Shown: one piece after another, positions 27,171 to 47,775 of the stretch
Position numbering within the stretch: the first letter of the stretch is position 1
Layout of the letters: each line of letters starts with the position of its first letter
IMG/VR virus record: IMGVR_UViG_3300045988_029198
Location: 1 to 58,013 of that record
Strand: one strand, 5' to 3'
From: a virus
Lineage: Duplodnaviria > Heunggongvirae > Uroviricota > Caudoviricetes
Length of the DNA: 58,013 bases
Made by a program: the position numbers and the translations under genes
The notes under the pieces: model-generated
Seen by the model: the letters and a program-made list of their open reading frames with translations, nothing else
Told to the model about the DNA's origin: nothing
The model's database searches: none

Positions 27171-27506
27171 ATGAAGAAACTGATTCTATGCGCATTACTG
27201 ACAACAACCCTGACAGCCTGTGATAATGCTGCTGATGTTGCCAGTCGTAACGTTGCAACCGCTGCAGCTAACTTTGAAGTAAATCGTCGTATCGTTTTCT
27301 ATAACGTTCGTAACGGTGAGTATCTTTTGTCTATCGAAGGTCGTTGTGCCCGTGAGAACACTAGCAAAGAGATCGAAATCACCTGTAAAACTGGTCCGAA
27401 CGACGTTAAGAAACACTTTATGGGGTTAACCACGGAGGTAACTTATTTCATTGAACAAACAGACCCCCTCGCCAACAGATCAGTATCGTTATCGTGTTAC
27501 TTTTAA
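27171..27506 (+). CDS. lipoprotein (signal peptide and lipobox LTAC); superinfection-exclusion candidate
   Basis: 111 aa, MKKLILCALLTTTLTAC N-terminus. Confidence 0.5.
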   Translation: MKKLILCALLTTTLTACDNAADVASRNVATAAANFEVNRRIVFYNVRNGEYLLSIEGRCARENTSKEIEITCKTGPNDVKKHFMGLTTEVTYFIEQTDPLANRSVSLSCYF

Positions 27507-27558
27507 CCCGATGCAAATTCTCCCGGATCTAAACATCCGTCACCTTGGGGAATAACCT

Positions 27559-31668: not shown

Positions 31669-32175
31669 ATGACTAACCTGTATATCAAAAAAAAACTAAC
31701 ACCCCACGCTGAACTTCCGACACGGGCAACACCAGACAGCGCCGGATTAGACGTTCGTGCTTGTCTGTGGGAAGAATCGGTAACTATATTCACAGAATCA
31801 GGCGCTAAAGTGGAACGTCCAGTTGTTGCAGGAACAATAGCACTATGGCCTGGCGACCGCGCTATGATCCCCACTGGTCTGAAAATGTCAGTTGATAGCG
31901 GATATTGCATTAAATTCTATCCACGTTCCGGCATGAGTCTTAAACACGGTTTGTCACTGATCAACTGTGTGGGTATCGGTGATCGTGATTACAAAGAAGA
32001 ATACTACGTTACGCTGACTAACCACGGGCAGAAATTACAGACTATCGCAGACGGTGAACGCGTTTGTCAGCTCATGGTTGAACGTGTCGAACCTGTTAAT
32101 CTGGTTGAAGTGGAAGAATTACCAGATGTTGATAGTCAGCGTAATGGCGGGTTTGGATCAACAGGACGGGTATGA
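31669..32175 (+). CDS. dut: dUTP diphosphatase (dUTPase)
   Basis: 168 aa; motifs AGLDV, RSGMSLK, GIGDRDYKEE, GERVCQL, RNGGFGSTG. Confidence 0.85.
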   Translation: MTNLYIKKKLTPHAELPTRATPDSAGLDVRACLWEESVTIFTESGAKVERPVVAGTIALWPGDRAMIPTGLKMSVDSGYCIKFYPRSGMSLKHGLSLINCVGIGDRDYKEEYYVTLTNHGQKLQTIADGERVCQLMVERVEPVNLVEVEELPDVDSQRNGGFGSTGRV

Positions 32176-39738: not shown

Positions 39739-39930
39739 ATGACGACTTGGAACATTTGTCATAAATCCGGGCGCGTACTGTTCACCACAAATGATGAACA
39801 GACCGCTATGAATCGTGCTAAATATGGGTGGAGGGTTGAAAAAGTGGATGACCGTTACGAAATTGCAAAACAGCACGGAATGTCGATAGAGTTCATCGAC
39901 TGTTCTGGGAGAACAAGAAAGCCAGTTTAG
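39739..39930 (+). CDS. hypothetical protein
   Basis: track ORF 63 aa. Confidence 0.4.
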   Translation: MTTWNICHKSGRVLFTTNDEQTAMNRAKYGWRVEKVDDRYEIAKQHGMSIEFIDCSGRTRKPV

Positions 39931-39950
39931 GTAGTGCCTGGTTTATCACC

Positions 39951-40127
39951 ATGAGCGCAATGTGGGAAGGGTGGAAAGTCAGTCGGGAACAGTTGGTAAT
40001 TGAATTACCAAAGCATGCTGGCATTTGTATTAAATCACCCGCAACACCTGTAGACGGATATGAAGCTGGTGTGCGCGATGTTGCTAACGTTCTGACCAAT
40101 GCCGGATTAACTGTTAAATTATCGTAA
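39951..40127 (+). CDS. small hypothetical ORF (58 aa)
   Basis: open frame between flanking genes on coding strand; weak RBS. Confidence 0.3.
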   Translation: MSAMWEGWKVSREQLVIELPKHAGICIKSPATPVDGYEAGVRDVANVLTNAGLTVKLS

Positions 40128-43700: not shown

Positions 43701-43739
43701 GTTATGATTTATCCGTGGTCAAACAAGAAGGGTATGATA

Positions 43740-44516
43740 ATGAAAAAGAACCTTTTAGACGAATTGATAGATTTAAAAGGCGGGGTACAAAATGCTGTTG
43801 AATACCTTAATCGTCGAGGTGTTAAGGTGACTGTTGGTCGTTACAACCAATGGTTGAGCGGTAGGTTTCATCCTAAATATGAAACGATCAGTATTATTCT
43901 TGAAGAGATTACTGACTTCACACTGTCACCCTTGCCAGTACAACATTCTGACGAAAACATTGTTCTTAAACACACAATACCGGTTACCGAACTGCGTCAG
44001 AAATTACCACACAGGCGTTTTGCTAATAACTACTGGCAACGTGTCAGATACGTTGATTCACAGATCCTGGAAGCTGTTCACGGTCACGACGTGTGGACAC
44101 GGTTTGAGGCGATGTGTGGTAATTTTGAATGCGCAAGATACGTGTTACGCAGAAATTTAAACGAACACACAATTACTGACAGTTGGATTCAGAATGGTTT
44201 GCGCCGGGGATGGGTCCCGGAATGTGTAAATGTAATGGCCGATTTGCTTGAAAAATACGAAGGCACCGGGACACCGTTTAACGTGATGGTTTGTGAAGCA
44301 CCTGTAGCACGAGTGGAACCACCTGTAGCACGAGTGGAACCACCTGTAGCACGAGTGGAACCACCTGTAGCACGAGTGGAACCACCTGTAGTCGATGTCA
44401 GCGATTTGAAGGAGAAAATCAGACTGTATGCGTTATCACACAACCCGCATTGCGATGTAGATAATATGCCTGATGATGTTGTTTTGATGATGTATAAAGA
44501 TATGATGGGTCAATAA
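43740..44516 (+). CDS. putative DNA-binding protein (N-terminal HTH-like) with (PVARVEP)4 tandem repeat
   Basis: ATG at codon 13 of track ORF with GAAGGG upstream; start ambiguous between 43704, 43734 and 43740. Confidence 0.45.
   Translation: MKKNLLDELIDLKGGVQNAVEYLNRRGVKVTVGRYNQWLSGRFHPKYETISIILEEITDFTLSPLPVQHSDENIVLKHTIPVTELRQKLPHRRFANNYWQRVRYVDSQILEAVHGHDVWTRFEAMCGNFECARYVLRRNLNEHTITDSWIQNGLRRGWVPECVNVMADLLEKYEGTGTPFNVMVCEAPVARVEPPVARVEPPVARVEPPVARVEPPVVDVSDLKEKIRLYALSHNPHCDVDNMPDDVVLMMYKDMMGQ
44299..44393. repeat. 21-bp tandem repeat, ~4.4 copies, in-frame
   Basis: cacctgtagcacgagtggaac repeated head-to-tail. Confidence 0.9.
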
Positions 44517-44520
44517 AGAT

Positions 44521-44547
44521 AGCGGGGTAGTTAGCCCCGCTTTTTTG
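44521..44547. terminator. rho-independent terminator between convergent genes
   Basis: gcgggg-tagttag-ccccgc then TTTTTT. Confidence 0.7.
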
Positions 44548-45062: not shown

Positions 45063-45632
45063 TCACAGATTCCCCATCGCTTTAACCAGCGCGTCGTAGT
45101 GTTTGTCAAACGCGGTTAACTGGACGTTCGTTAGTTTGTATTTGGCTTTAAACAATTCACGCTCAACAAGCGCGTATAACTCCTGGTTGCTTGCGTCTGA
45201 CAGATGAGCAAGCATGAGTTGTTTTTCAGCCAGGTACGTTACAGCAAACTTCGGATCGTGTCGGACAATTGAAGATGTGTTATCCAGCAGATCACACAGT
45301 TTTATAGTTTTCACCACAGGTTCAGCCCGTGATAAATGGTCGATATCCCGTGCTTTACGCTTAACACGGTTGCCGTGGTGTGGACGACTCACATCAGTAA
45401 GCTGATCAACATAACGTGCCACAGTCTCACCGAACTGCGAACACACATCACCCACGGTCACTGGCGTATCTTCAACGACGTCATGCAGCCAGGCAGCGGT
45501 AACCATATCCGGCGTACCACCATAGCGTTTAACCAGTTCAGCAACGTTCCGGCAGTGGTTCACATATGGGTCGTTGGTGTACTTACGAAGTTGATCACCG
45601 TGTGCGGCTGTTGCGAATTGTTCAGGTGTCAT
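45063..45632 (-). CDS. HD-domain (p)ppGpp hydrolase-like protein (small alarmone hydrolase-like)
   Basis: 189 aa; RelA/SpoT-type HD motifs AHGDQLRKYTNDPYVNH, AAWLHDVVEDT, KTIKLCDLLDN. Confidence 0.7.
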   Translation of the reverse strand: MTPEQFATAAHGDQLRKYTNDPYVNHCRNVAELVKRYGGTPDMVTAAWLHDVVEDTPVTVGDVCSQFGETVARYVDQLTDVSRPHHGNRVKRKARDIDHLSRAEPVVKTIKLCDLLDNTSSIVRHDPKFAVTYLAEKQLMLAHLSDASNQELYALVERELFKAKYKLTNVQLTAFDKHYDALVKAMGNL

Positions 45633-45916
45633 GATGGTTGTACCTCAAGTTTTATAGCGAATACTTTCACTGGATTATTTCCGAAAAATTCATGATTGAT
45701 TGTTTTTATTTCATAACCTCGATAGTGCATATTCAGAATCCGTTCGTTGTCATCTTTGCGCGGATAACCACGAGTGATGATTAACCTGTCATAGGTTCGG
45801 TTAATTAAACGTTTTTCCAGTAGTCATTGAACAAACGGTATTCTTCGGTTTTTTTCACCATTTTTAATCTGGTCAAAGTATTTACCATTAACGGCAAGTT
45901 GAAGTTTAGTGCTCAT
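45629..45916 (-). pseudogene. ASCH-like ORF interrupted by a single in-frame TGA (codon 31, at 45824..45826)
   Basis: one frame reads MSTKLQLAVNGKYFDQIKNGEKNRRIPFVQ-TGA-LLEKRLINRTYDRLIITRGYPRKDD...KLEVQPS; final stop overlaps HD gene start. Confidence 0.4.
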
Positions 45917-45918
45917 AT

Positions 45919-46182
45919 TCAATACCCTTTTAATTTTCTACACTCAGGACAGCGCCATCTACCTTTTTGGTAAACTCGCGTATGACCACGTTTACATTTA
46001 TTGGTTACCAGTGATATACCGAGACGTGACGCTTTAATGTGCACCGCTTCAACGTCCCGGCGAAGGTGATACGCTATTTCGTCCGCACTGATCTTTCCTG
46101 CATTAATTTTTAATAACGCCAGATCTCGTGCGGACCACTTCAAACCGTTACGAGGGAACCTGTTAGTCTGATACTCATACAC
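45919..46182 (-). CDS. putative DNA-binding protein (HTH-like plus C-terminal CPEC zinc ribbon), GTG start
   Basis: GTG at codon 27 of track ORF with AGGTGA RBS; SARDLALLKINAGKISADEIAYHL HTH-like segment. Confidence 0.4.
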   Translation of the reverse strand: MYEYQTNRFPRNGLKWSARDLALLKINAGKISADEIAYHLRRDVEAVHIKASRLGISLVTNKCKRGHTRVYQKGRWRCPECRKLKGY

Positions 46183-46186
46183 GAAC

Positions 46187-46378
46187 TCACCTTTTACGAA
46201 GCTGTATGGCAAATTCACGGATAGTGTCATCAAGGTCTGGACATAACAGATTGTCAGCAAACATCTCTACCCCCTGTGCCCGTACTTCAGCCAGAAAAGC
46301 ATCGGTGGCTGGGGTTTTGCAGGACGTTTGAATTGTCTCCTCTGTGTATAAAACACCCGTTCGATTGGCGGTATACAT
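46187..46378 (-). CDS. hypothetical protein (overlaps 46287..46541 in another frame)
   Basis: track ORF 63 aa; no clear RBS. Confidence 0.3.
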   Translation of the reverse strand: MYTANRTGVLYTEETIQTSCKTPATDAFLAEVRAQGVEMFADNLLCPDLDDTIREFAIQLRKR

Positions 46379-46541
46379 GATGTGCTGATTTCACAGCCTC
46401 AACTTCAGCAGCCAGCGCCGCACATTTATTTTCAAGTTCACCAAATTTGCGTACCAGATATTCAGCGTTTGTTTCGTTAACTTTCAGATCACCCGGGACA
46501 CATTTACCACGAAGAAAACCTTCCATTTCGTACACAGTCAT
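46287..46541 (-). CDS. hypothetical protein (true 3' end uncertain)
   Basis: track ORF 84 aa; ATG directly after upstream stop. Confidence 0.35.
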   Translation of the reverse strand: MTVYEMEGFLRGKCVPGDLKVNETNAEYLVRKFGELENKCAALAAEVEAVKSAHHVYRQSNGCFIHRGDNSNVLQNPSHRCFSG

Positions 46542-47731: not shown

Positions 47732-47775
47732 ATTATCGGGTGGGGTTGGTAATCTGTCAAGAATTATTTTGAACT
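47732..47775 (-). promoter_or_regulatory. conserved promoter module copy (minus strand) for ParB-like operon
   Basis: reverse complement gives AAAATAATTCTTGACA, 17-bp spacer, GATAAT -10; 8-bp-stem hairpin in the 5' UTR. Confidence 0.65.

What the first reader, a model, noticed from the sequence alone, without database searches (positions are those of the whole stretch)
45629..45916. ASCH-like gene with a single in-frame TGA, translationally coupled to the HD hydrolase
One continuous frame encodes an ASCH-like ~95-aa protein except for one TGA at codon 31 (45824..45826). Its final stop overlaps the HD gene start (ATGA). Possible explanations are a recent nonsense mutation, a sequencing error, or regulated readthrough that controls translation of the downstream hydrolase.
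Basis: seen in the sequence. Interest (0 to 1): 0.5.

Follow-up and report, generated by a model that had tools for sequence, protein, structure and literature searches.

The report
Frameshifted, decaying ASCH gene in phage
The "in-frame TGA" is a side effect of two single-base length changes in poly-A runs that have broken a small, dispensable phage accessory gene; it is an ordinary decaying gene, not a regulated stop-codon readthrough.

Summary
On the minus strand, ATG 45916 opens a 95-codon frame with one TGA (45826..45824), and its final TGA overlaps the HD gene's ATG (ATGA).

The interpretation does not hold. Intact orthologues have A6 at both poly-A runs. They sit in the same position, 4 nt overlapped with the same HD_4 gene, and one is identical to my repaired protein on 9 contigs. 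The window has A7 (45855..45849, +1) and A5 (45816..45812, -1). The 32 nt between the runs are therefore read out of frame.

- **The TGA:** it is the out-of-frame AAT GAC (Asn-Asp) of the intact gene, not a substitution.
- **What is lost:** the conserved TEEYRLFNDYWK, with family-invariant E25, Y26, R27 and W33, lies in the other frame. Readthrough would give a protein with a scrambled core (-30 bits).
- **Both lesions occur elsewhere:** A6/A5 is in phage PDP46 and 4 contigs; A7/A6 is inferred from products called on 4 contigs.
- **ASCH is dispensable:** PJ16 lacks it precisely, and Bas82 and AVIO78A carry other genes there.
- **HD does not depend on it:** HD keeps its own GAGGT Shine-Dalgarno site in all relatives.

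Three other small genes in the window are also broken, while all large genes are intact. The best reading is a pseudogene in a 9NA-like coliphage. Sequencing error is the main rival. Interest is low.

The parts
45629..45916 (-). ASCH-family gene remnant (pseudogene). It has 95 codons from ATG 45916 to TGA 45629 and is disrupted by two opposite 1-nt homopolymer indels.
   Evidence: Intact 95-aa orthologues P0001 and P0124 are 99-100% identical to the repaired translation.
45849..45855 (-). Poly-A run of 7 (GGTG-AAAAAAA-CC on the minus strand). It carries a +1 insertion relative to A6 in the intact alleles and in PDP46.
   Evidence: Alignments; run located. The A7 allele also follows from the called products P0134 and P0138 (MVNTLTRLKMVKKTEEYRL...).
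45817..45848 (-). 32-nt segment between the two runs. The ATG frame reads it out of frame as (N)RRIPFVQ*LL(E). The conserved reading is (T)EEYRLFNDYW(K).
   Evidence: The family invariants E25, Y26, R27 and W33 lie here.
45824..45826 (-). It is the out-of-frame overlap of codons AAT GAC (Asn30-Asp31) of the intact gene.
   Evidence: these bases are identical in the intact relatives.
45812..45816 (-). Poly-A run of 5 (TGG-AAAAA-CG). It carries a -1 deletion relative to A6 in the intact alleles. The deletion is shared with phage PDP46.
   Evidence: The 36-aa product of the A6/A5 allele is also on 4 further contigs.
45805..45897 (-). Alternate-frame ORF (30 aa) that carries the conserved KTEEYRLFNDYWK segment.
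   Evidence: family profile hit at E = 3.5e-8.
45629..45730 (-). Residual 33-aa ORF (MHYRGYEIK...), the C-terminal third of ASCH. PDP46 annotates it as a separate hypothetical protein.
45642..45646 (-). GAGGT Shine-Dalgarno site of the HD gene, 9 nt upstream of its ATG. It lies inside the ASCH 3' end.
   Evidence: The block GAGGTACAACCATC-ATG is conserved in Bas82 and AVIO78A, whose upstream genes are unrelated.
45063..45632 (-). Intact 189-aa HD_4 (RelA/SpoT-type hydrolase domain) gene immediately downstream.
   Evidence: Pfam HD_4 E = 3.9e-15. TIGR00691 matches the hydrolase part only. 98.4% identical to the PDP46 orthologue.
45919..46260 (-). Upstream 113-aa gene of the same operon. Its stop lies 2 nt before the ASCH ATG. 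In phage PJ16 this gene abuts the HD gene directly, with no ASCH.

Best explanation
The locus is a small ASCH-family accessory gene of a 9NA-like (Nonanavirus/Sashavirus) E. coli/Salmonella siphophage. Two replication-slippage changes in poly-A runs have inactivated it: A6->A5 at 45816..45812 and A6->A7 at 45855..45849.

The A5 deletion is shared with phage PDP46, so it probably came first. The A7 insertion then followed on an already dead gene. That order is inferred, not shown.

The two indels have opposite sign, so the frame after the second run happens to match the frame before the first. This creates the appearance of one long ORF with a single stop.

How the locus behaves now:
- Ribosomes starting at ATG 45916 make a 30-residue peptide and stop at the exposed TGA.
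- No functional ASCH protein is made.
- The downstream HD_4 hydrolase gene is translated from its own GAGGT Shine-Dalgarno site, independently of ASCH.

Shown: the two indels, the frame relations, intact orthologues in the same synteny, recurrence of both alleles elsewhere, dispensability of ASCH, and the conserved SD of the HD gene.

Inferred: that the changes are real mutations rather than assembly errors, their order, and the absence of any recoding.
For: **Intact orthologues.** An intact orthologue with A6/A6 sits in identical synteny, with the ATGA overlap to HD_4 (L009). A second is in L010. P0124 is identical to the repaired protein and occurs on 9 contigs.

**Frame relations.** Distant homologues (RCS47, Sf11, Klebsiella phage 6991, 933W) align without gaps only to the repaired reading. 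Profile scores are 163.5 bits for the repaired protein and 133.3 bits for the readthrough frame, and the alternate frame is found at E = 3.5e-8.

**Lost residues.** E25, Y26, R27 and W33 are invariant in 47 homologues and fall in the scrambled segment. In the AF2 model this segment forms strand 24-28 and the start of helix 31-37.

**Both lesions occur elsewhere.** A6/A5 is in PDP46, and its 36-aa product is on 4 more contigs. A7/A6 is implied by the 86-aa products P0134 (3 contigs) and P0138 (1 contig), on different SNP backgrounds.

**ASCH is dispensable.** PJ16 joins the upstream gene directly to HD. Bas82 and AVIO78A have unrelated genes in the slot.

**The sequence looks accurate.**
- All large genes are intact against PDP46.
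- By my inspection of the coordinates, about 11 of about 14 isolated 1-nt indels against PDP46 are intergenic, although PDP46's annotated CDSs cover 94% of its genome.
- The chance that 3 random coding hits all fall in genes of 130 aa or fewer is 0.018.

**Other genes are decaying too.** The neighbouring gene 46187..46541 carries a 20-nt deletion between CATCATG direct repeats, which is not a homopolymer-type error.

**No recoding signal.** RNA folding around the sites gives z = -0.05, and there is no Rfam match.
Against: - No reads are available, so the A7 and A5 lengths in this particular assembly cannot be verified.
- The window carries two further window-specific single-base indels in short runs (C5 at about 27468, G at about 39903). 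These could equally indicate a slightly error-prone assembly.
- The A7/A6 allele is inferred from called protein sequences, not from DNA I could read.
- UGA followed by C is regarded as a leaky stop context in E. coli (my own knowledge), so a trace of readthrough product cannot be excluded.
Confidence: 0.8

Rival explanations
1. One or both homopolymer lengths are sequencing or assembly errors. The real phage would then carry either an intact ASCH gene (A6/A6) or the PDP46-type single frameshift (A6/A5).
For: - Both lesions are 1-nt length changes in A runs, the classic error type.
- The window has two more window-specific 1-nt indels in short runs that break small genes. All 4 or 5 relatives differ from the window at those sites.
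- The window is a circular-style assembly cut inside a 30-nt tandem repeat.
Against: - The A5 allele is present in an independently sequenced isolate (PDP46) and on 4 other contigs.
- The A7 allele is implied on 4 other contigs.
- All large genes are intact, and single-base indels against PDP46 are concentrated in the roughly 6% of sequence that is non-coding. That is the signature of selection, not random error.
- The adjacent gene is broken by a 20-nt repeat-mediated deletion, which is not an error type.
Confidence: 0.13
2. The two A runs act as a contingency (phase-variable) switch, or as a target of recurrent selection for loss. ASCH would then be turned off and on in phage populations by run-length changes, perhaps because the protein is costly or sensed in some hosts.
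For: About 10 of about 30 observed copies of this near-identical gene carry a frameshift at one of the same two runs. At least three allele states occur, on different SNP backgrounds.
Against: - Runs of 5-7 are short for classical phase variation (my own knowledge).
- The window has accumulated two lesions and an exposed stop, which is decay rather than a reversible switch.
- Distant homologues have no A run at either site.
- Neighbouring accessory genes are also broken, by unrelated mechanisms.
- Contig counts are not independent samples.
Confidence: 0.05
3. Programmed recoding: UGA readthrough, or frameshifting or transcriptional slippage at the A runs, yields a regulated amount of full-length protein and thereby tunes translation of the coupled HD gene.
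For: - The frame is continuous apart from one UGA, and the next base is C.
- A_AAA_AAC is a known type of -1 slippery heptamer (my own knowledge).
- ATGA overlap with the HD gene.
Against: - No relative has a stop here, and the majority state is a plain intact ORF.
- Readthrough yields a protein lacking four invariant residues.
- The homologous protein would need two opposite shifts: +1 at the first run and -1 at the second. A -1 slip at A_AAA_AAC enters the wrong frame (read directly from the sequence).
- No stimulatory structure and no Rfam element.
- The HD gene has its own conserved SD and functions behind unrelated genes.
Confidence: 0.02

Closest known systems
ASCH domain proteins (Pfam PF04266, PUA-like fold; e.g. 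E. coli YqfB, Zymomonas ZmASCH, E. faecalis 3IUW), specifically the short phage/prophage subgroup PHROG 625 found next to eaa/ea22 in lambdoid, P22-like and P1-like phages
   Same: - The repaired protein is 61-73% identical to proteins that NCBI names 'ASCH domain-containing protein'.
- PHROG 625 matches at E = 1.8e-39.
- The AF2 model of the intact allele has ASCH structures as its top 15 PDB matches.
- The G-x-K-x-x-E-x-R motif is present (G20..R27).
   Different: - The copy in the window is broken and cannot make this protein.
- The Pfam ASCH model itself is matched only below threshold (15.9 against 21.2 bits).
- No function has been tested for this phage subgroup.
Homopolymer-slippage frameshift pseudogenes in dispensable accessory (moron-like) genes of mosaic phage genomes
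   Same: - Single-base run-length changes, intact orthologues in the same synteny, and accumulation of a second lesion.
- Neighbouring accessory genes are also decaying.
- The slot is variable among relatives.
   Different: Nothing essential. The only curiosity is that the two indels have opposite sign and so mimic a single in-frame stop. The same two runs are also hit in several other isolates.
Leaky UGA readthrough (e.g. the Qbeta coat/A1 extension) and programmed frameshifting (dnaX, phage tail chaperone G/GT)
   Same: Superficially: one UGA in an otherwise open frame, A-rich heptamers, and a downstream overlapping gene.
   Different: The defining conservation of the recoding site among relatives is absent. 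The product of readthrough would not be the homologous protein, and there is no stimulatory element.
Translational coupling through ATGA stop/start overlap
   Same: A 4-nt overlap between ASCH and HD_4 is present in the window and in the intact relatives.
   Different: - The downstream gene has a good SD of its own, which travels with the HD cassette.
- In the window, upstream ribosomes terminate 192 nt before the junction.

Membership tests
ASCH domain family (PF04266) | Sequence match to the Pfam ASCH model above its gathering score | tested here: not met
   Repaired protein: E = 0.022, 15.9 bits against a cut-off of 21.2, covering residues 8-28 only. The as-is frame gives no ASCH hit at all. 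NCBIfam: no hit.
ASCH domain family (PF04266) | PUA-like beta-barrel fold resembling solved ASCH structures | tested here: met
   This was tested on the intact allele P0001, not on the window's broken copy. AF2 gives pLDDT 88.5 and pTM 0.77. The top 15 Foldseek PDB hits are all ASCH proteins (3iuw, 2z0t, 5gus, 9kyh YqfB, 1xne), with probability 0.57-0.99 (0.82 or higher for 14 of the 15), TM about 0.4-0.6, and a best E-value of 0.012.
ASCH domain family (PF04266) | N-terminal GxKxxExR signature (recalled from the original description of the family, not checked here) | tested here: met
   G20-E-K22-T-E-E25-Y-R27 is present in the repaired and intact alleles. G20, K22, E25 and R27 are invariant in 47 homologues. 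In the window's ATG frame the E-x-R half is lost (GEKNRRIP).
Programmed stop-codon readthrough | The stop codon is conserved at that position in relatives, with coding conservation on both sides in the same frame | tested here: not met
   No relative has a stop there. The TGA bases are AAT GAC read out of frame, and the 12 codons around it are in the wrong frame.
Programmed ribosomal frameshifting / transcriptional slippage | A shift site conserved among relatives, such that one defined shift yields the conserved product | tested here: not met
   Most near-identical copies are plain ORFs (A6/A6). Distant homologues lack A runs. The window would need two opposite shifts.
Programmed ribosomal frameshifting / transcriptional slippage | A stimulatory RNA structure or known element next to the site | tested here: not met
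   MFE z-score -0.05 against shuffles. No Rfam match at E <= 1.
Translational coupling (downstream gene dependent on upstream translation) | Stop/start overlap | tested here: met
   ATGA at 45632..45629. The same overlap is in L009, L010 and L011.
Translational coupling (downstream gene dependent on upstream translation) | The downstream start lacks an independent ribosome-binding site | tested here: not met
   GAGGT lies 9 nt upstream of the HD ATG. It is conserved with the HD cassette in Bas82 and AVIO78A, behind unrelated genes. PJ16 uses a different AAGGG site.
Phase-variable contingency locus | Several run-length alleles among close relatives | tested here: met
   A6/A6, A6/A5, A7/A6 (inferred) and A7/A5 are all observed.
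Phase-variable contingency locus | Reversible high-frequency switching within a clonal population | not testable with these tools
   This needs read-level or experimental data. Runs of 5-7 nt are shorter than typical contingency tracts (my own knowledge).
Pseudogene (decaying accessory gene) | Intact orthologues in conserved synteny, plus disabling lesions in this copy | tested here: met
   L009 and L010 are intact, with the same neighbours. The window has two frameshifts and a premature stop at codon 31.
Pseudogene (decaying accessory gene) | The gene is dispensable in the lineage | tested here: met
   The gene is precisely absent in PJ16, replaced in Bas82 and AVIO78A, and not found in Sasha/Sergei, which match only the first 61 bases of a query that did not reach ASCH.

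The most novel reading that the evidence does not exclude
The two short A runs in this ASCH gene are recurrent targets of inactivation in 9NA-like phages. Roughly a third of observed copies are frameshifted at one of the same two sites. This could reflect selection against ASCH in some hosts, for example if a defence system senses it, or a crude on/off contingency switch. The alternative is neutral decay.
Probability: 0.06. Interest if true: 0.45.

Novelty: already known. Interest (0 to 1): 0.12.

Why it matters
It matters mainly for annotation.
- The locus should be labelled as a frameshifted ASCH pseudogene. It is not two hypothetical ORFs, as in PDP46, where one fragment is called 'RNA-binding protein'. 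It is also not a recoding candidate.
- An apparent 'single in-frame stop' can be produced by two compensating indels. Checking the frame of the flanking codons against homologues separates this case from a nonsense mutation or readthrough.
- The recurrence of lesions at the same two runs in several isolates is a minor lead on the dispensability or cost of phage ASCH proteins, whose function is unknown.

Tried and rejected
**Nonsense substitution.** Rejected, because the TGA bases are identical in the intact genes.

**Readthrough, selenocysteine or recoding element.** No Rfam hit, no unusual RNA structure, and the flanking codons are out of frame.

**A -1 slip at A_AAA_AAC in the first run.** It enters the frame PKNTVCSMTTGKTFN*, not the conserved one (read).

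**Searches for more DNA copies.**
- Gapped exact patterns in viral contigs gave 0 hits.
- The long pattern gave 0 hits in metagenome contigs and genome contigs.
- The short pattern gave 24 hits, all of them chance matches in unrelated organisms with no ASCH homology.
- E. coli complete genomes gave no match.

**Look-ups.**
- The window's own 30-aa and 33-aa products are not on record.

**PDB sequence search with the family profile.** Nothing significant. The fold search was needed instead.

**First structure job.** I re-ran it with P0001 as the first row.

Full report
**1. What is in the sequence**

The feature lies on the minus strand. From ATG 45916..45914 the frame reads MSTKLQLAVNGKYFDQIKNGEKNRRIPFVQ. 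A TGA follows at 45826..45824. The frame then continues as LLEKRLINRTYDRLIITRGYPRKDDNERILNMHYRGYEIKTINHEFFGNNPVKVFAIKLEVQPS to a TGA at 45631..45629. That last stop overlaps the ATG (45632..45630) of a 189-aa HD_4 gene at 45063..45632 (Pfam HD_4 E = 3.9e-15).

**2. The key correction**

I aligned the locus with intact homologues from phages RCS47, Sf11, Klebsiella phage 6991 and 933W. These encode 92-94 aa proteins that are 61-67% identical to the repaired translation. The window's ATG frame matches them at residues 1-22 and 35-95 but not at 23-34. The homologous residues TEEYRLFNDYWK are encoded in the neighbouring frame, in ORF 45805..45897.

At DNA level the window has one extra A in the run GGTG-A7-CC (45855..45849). 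It has one A too few in TGG-A5-CG (45816..45812). The 32 nt in between are therefore read out of frame. The TGA is the AA-TGA-C of codons Asn-Asp.

A profile built from 45 homologues, leaving out the two closest, gave these scores:

| Sequence tested | Result |
|---|---|
| Repaired protein | 163.5 bits |
| Window frame with the stop read through | 133.3 bits |
| Alternate frame alone | E = 3.5e-8, over exactly this segment |

In an alignment of 47 homologues, E25, Y26, R27 and W33 are invariant, and E24 and L28 nearly so. All of these fall in the scrambled stretch.

**3. Near-identical relatives give the ancestral state**

- The contig encoding P0001 (Logan SRR25571679, L009) has the same gene order: ParB-like, DUF2737, and so on, then ASCH, HD_4 and DUF1382. 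It also has the same 4-nt ASCH/HD overlap.
- Its DNA is A6 at both runs and otherwise almost identical to the window. L010 is the same.
- Cluster members include P0124. It is identical to my repaired protein and is present on 9 contigs of up to 59 kb.

The intact gene is therefore the common state in this phage group.

**4. Both lesions circulate elsewhere**

| Allele (first run / second run) | Where seen |
|---|---|
| A6/A6, intact | about 19 contigs plus one nr record |
| A6/A5 | phage PDP46 (PQ783785, 99.3% identical here), annotated as a 36-aa 'RNA-binding protein' plus a 33-aa hypothetical protein; the same 36-aa product (P0139) is on 4 further contigs |
| A7/A6, inferred | the 86-aa called products P0134 (3 contigs) and P0138 (1 contig) |
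| A7/A5 | the window only |

P0134 and P0138 begin MVNTLTRLKMVKKTEEYRL.... That N-terminus can join the TEEYRL frame only if the first run is A7. Their YWKKRL shows A6 at the second run. They sit on SNP backgrounds different from the window's.

By my count, about 10 copies are frameshifted at one of these two runs. Contig counts are not independent samples.

**5. Real mutation or sequencing error**

No reads are available, so this is an inference.

The window is a complete, circularly permuted genome of about 58 kb. It starts and ends in the same 30-nt tandem repeat. It is about 93-97% identical to PDP46. Every large gene is full-length, including TerL, portal, major capsid, tail tube, tail tip, DNA polymerase, primase and the exonucleases.

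By my inspection of the coordinates, about 14 isolated single-base indels separate the window from PDP46, and about 11 of them lie in intergenic DNA. PDP46's annotated CDSs cover 94% of its genome. The three coding indels all fall in small genes. Genes of 130 aa or fewer make up only 26% of coding length, so three random hits would all land there with P = 0.018. This is the pattern of mutations filtered by selection, not of random error.

The gene two positions upstream (46187..46541) is broken by a 20-nt deletion between CATCATG direct repeats, relative to the intact 124-aa gene in L009. That is a replication-slippage lesion, not a base-calling artefact.

Against this, two other window-specific single-base changes break small genes. 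One is C5 for C4 near 27468. The other is G for GG near 39903. All 4-5 relatives disagree with the window at these sites. An error-prone assembly therefore cannot be excluded. I put it at about 13%.

**6. The HD gene does not depend on ASCH**

The block GAGGTACAACCATC-ATG precedes the HD start in the window, PDP46, L009-L011, Bas82 and AVIO78A. In the last two the upstream gene is unrelated to ASCH. The SD therefore travels with the HD cassette.

In PJ16 the 113-aa gene that precedes ASCH in the window is joined directly to the HD ATG, using what is ASCH's own ribosome-binding region. ASCH is thus a discrete, dispensable cassette.

A strong promoter-like site (TTGACA-17-GATAAT, 11 of 12 matches) lies at 47760..47732 on the minus strand, upstream of the ParB-like gene. 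A terminator-like hairpin lies at 44541..44521. ASCH and HD would then sit in one accessory-gene operon (consensus matches only).

**7. Recoding alternatives**

- **Readthrough.** It would produce a protein lacking four invariant residues. In the AF2 model of the intact allele the scrambled stretch covers strand 24-28 and the start of helix 31-37.
- **Frameshifting.** Producing the homologous protein from the window allele would need a +1 event at the first run and a -1 event at the second. A -1 slip on A_AAA_AAC enters a third frame that stops after 15 codons (read).
- **Signals.** There is no unusual RNA structure (z = -0.05) and no Rfam match. Distant homologues have no A runs at these sites.

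I consider programmed recoding effectively excluded, at about 2%.

**8. Family assignment**

- The intact allele folds with confidence (pLDDT 88.5, pTM 0.77).
- Its 15 best PDB matches are all ASCH proteins, including 3IUW, PH0355, ZmASCH and YqfB, although the E-values are modest (best 0.012).
- NCBI names the homologues ASCH domain-containing, and PHROG 625 matches at E = 1.8e-39.
- The Pfam ASCH model is matched only below threshold.
- The motif G-E-K-T-E-E-Y-R fits the ASCH signature GxKxxExR, which I recall from the literature and did not check.

The gene is a divergent short ASCH, and its function is untested.

**9. Verdict**

This is an ordinary frameshifted pseudogene of a dispensable accessory gene in a Nonanavirus/Sashavirus-like coliphage. 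For context on this phage group see PMC11990801. The two compensating indels mimic a single in-frame stop.

The only mildly interesting residue is the recurrence of lesions at the same two A runs in several isolates. That could reflect mutational hot spots under relaxed selection, which I think most likely. Less likely, it reflects selection for loss or crude phase variation.

Noticed in passing
window 46187..46541 (-), deletion junction near 46378: The gene two positions upstream of ASCH is split into 84-aa and 63-aa ORFs by a 20-nt deletion between CATCATG direct repeats. It is Eae-like at its C-terminus, and it is an intact 124-aa gene in L009 2356-2730. This is a second pseudogene within 700 bp.
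   Followed up: yes
window 27171..27552 (+), C run at about 27464-27468: A lipoprotein-like gene of about 126 aa (MKKLILCALLTTTLTAC...) is frameshifted by a window-specific extra C (C5 against C4). All 4 relatives lack the extra base.
   Followed up: partly
window 39739..40127 (+), around 39903: A small gene that is a single 108-aa ORF in PDP46 is split into 63-aa and 58-aa ORFs by a window-specific loss of one G (GG to G). All 5 relatives have the extra base.
   Followed up: partly
L011 3001-3333 (Logan SRR28001094): P0007 is a 110-aa in-frame fusion of the ParB-like N-terminus (MANINSLRKL...TDNYW) to the ASCH C-terminus (KKRLINRTY...). A deletion of all intervening genes, at the shared AACTACTGG (N-Y-W) microhomology, appears to have produced it.
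   Followed up: partly
window 1..111 and 57935..58013: The window begins and ends in the same 30-nt tandem repeat (ACACCAGCGGCAGCACCTGTAGCAGCGCCT), inside the Gp2.5-like ssDNA-binding gene. The window is therefore a whole circularly permuted genome cut in a repeat, and the repeat copy number may be unreliable.
   Followed up: partly
window 44295..44391 (in gene 43704..44516, +): A 21-nt tandem repeat encodes (PPVARVE) x4.6 in a 270-aa protein. PDP46 has one more unit, so the repeat is length-polymorphic and in frame.
   Followed up: no
window 31687..31695 (in the dUTPase gene 31669..32172, +): An A9 run where PDP46 has A6. This is an in-frame 3-nt expansion near the 5' end of the dUTPase gene, and it is the longest homopolymer in the window.
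   Followed up: no
PDP46 (PQ783785) loci PDP46_0093 to PDP46_0095: The public annotation calls the ASCH N-terminal fragment 'RNA-binding protein'. It calls the HD_4-only protein 'RelA/SpoT family (p)ppGpp synthetase', although only the hydrolase (HD) part of RelA/SpoT is matched (TIGR00691 positions 4-122 of 687).
   Followed up: partly
window 45633..45649 and the equivalent region in L002, L003: The mosaic breakpoint upstream of the HD gene falls immediately 5' of the conserved AGAGGTACAACCATC-ATG block. Unrelated upstream genes in Bas82 and AVIO78A therefore end with the same last codons and the same ATGA overlap.
   Followed up: partly
P0129 (164 aa; Logan/ENA contig of about 60 kb): In one relative the ASCH ORF is fused in frame to a downstream 68-aa gene (MNTNDYLYLV...). 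That 68-aa protein family was co-clustered with ASCH for this reason.
   Followed up: no
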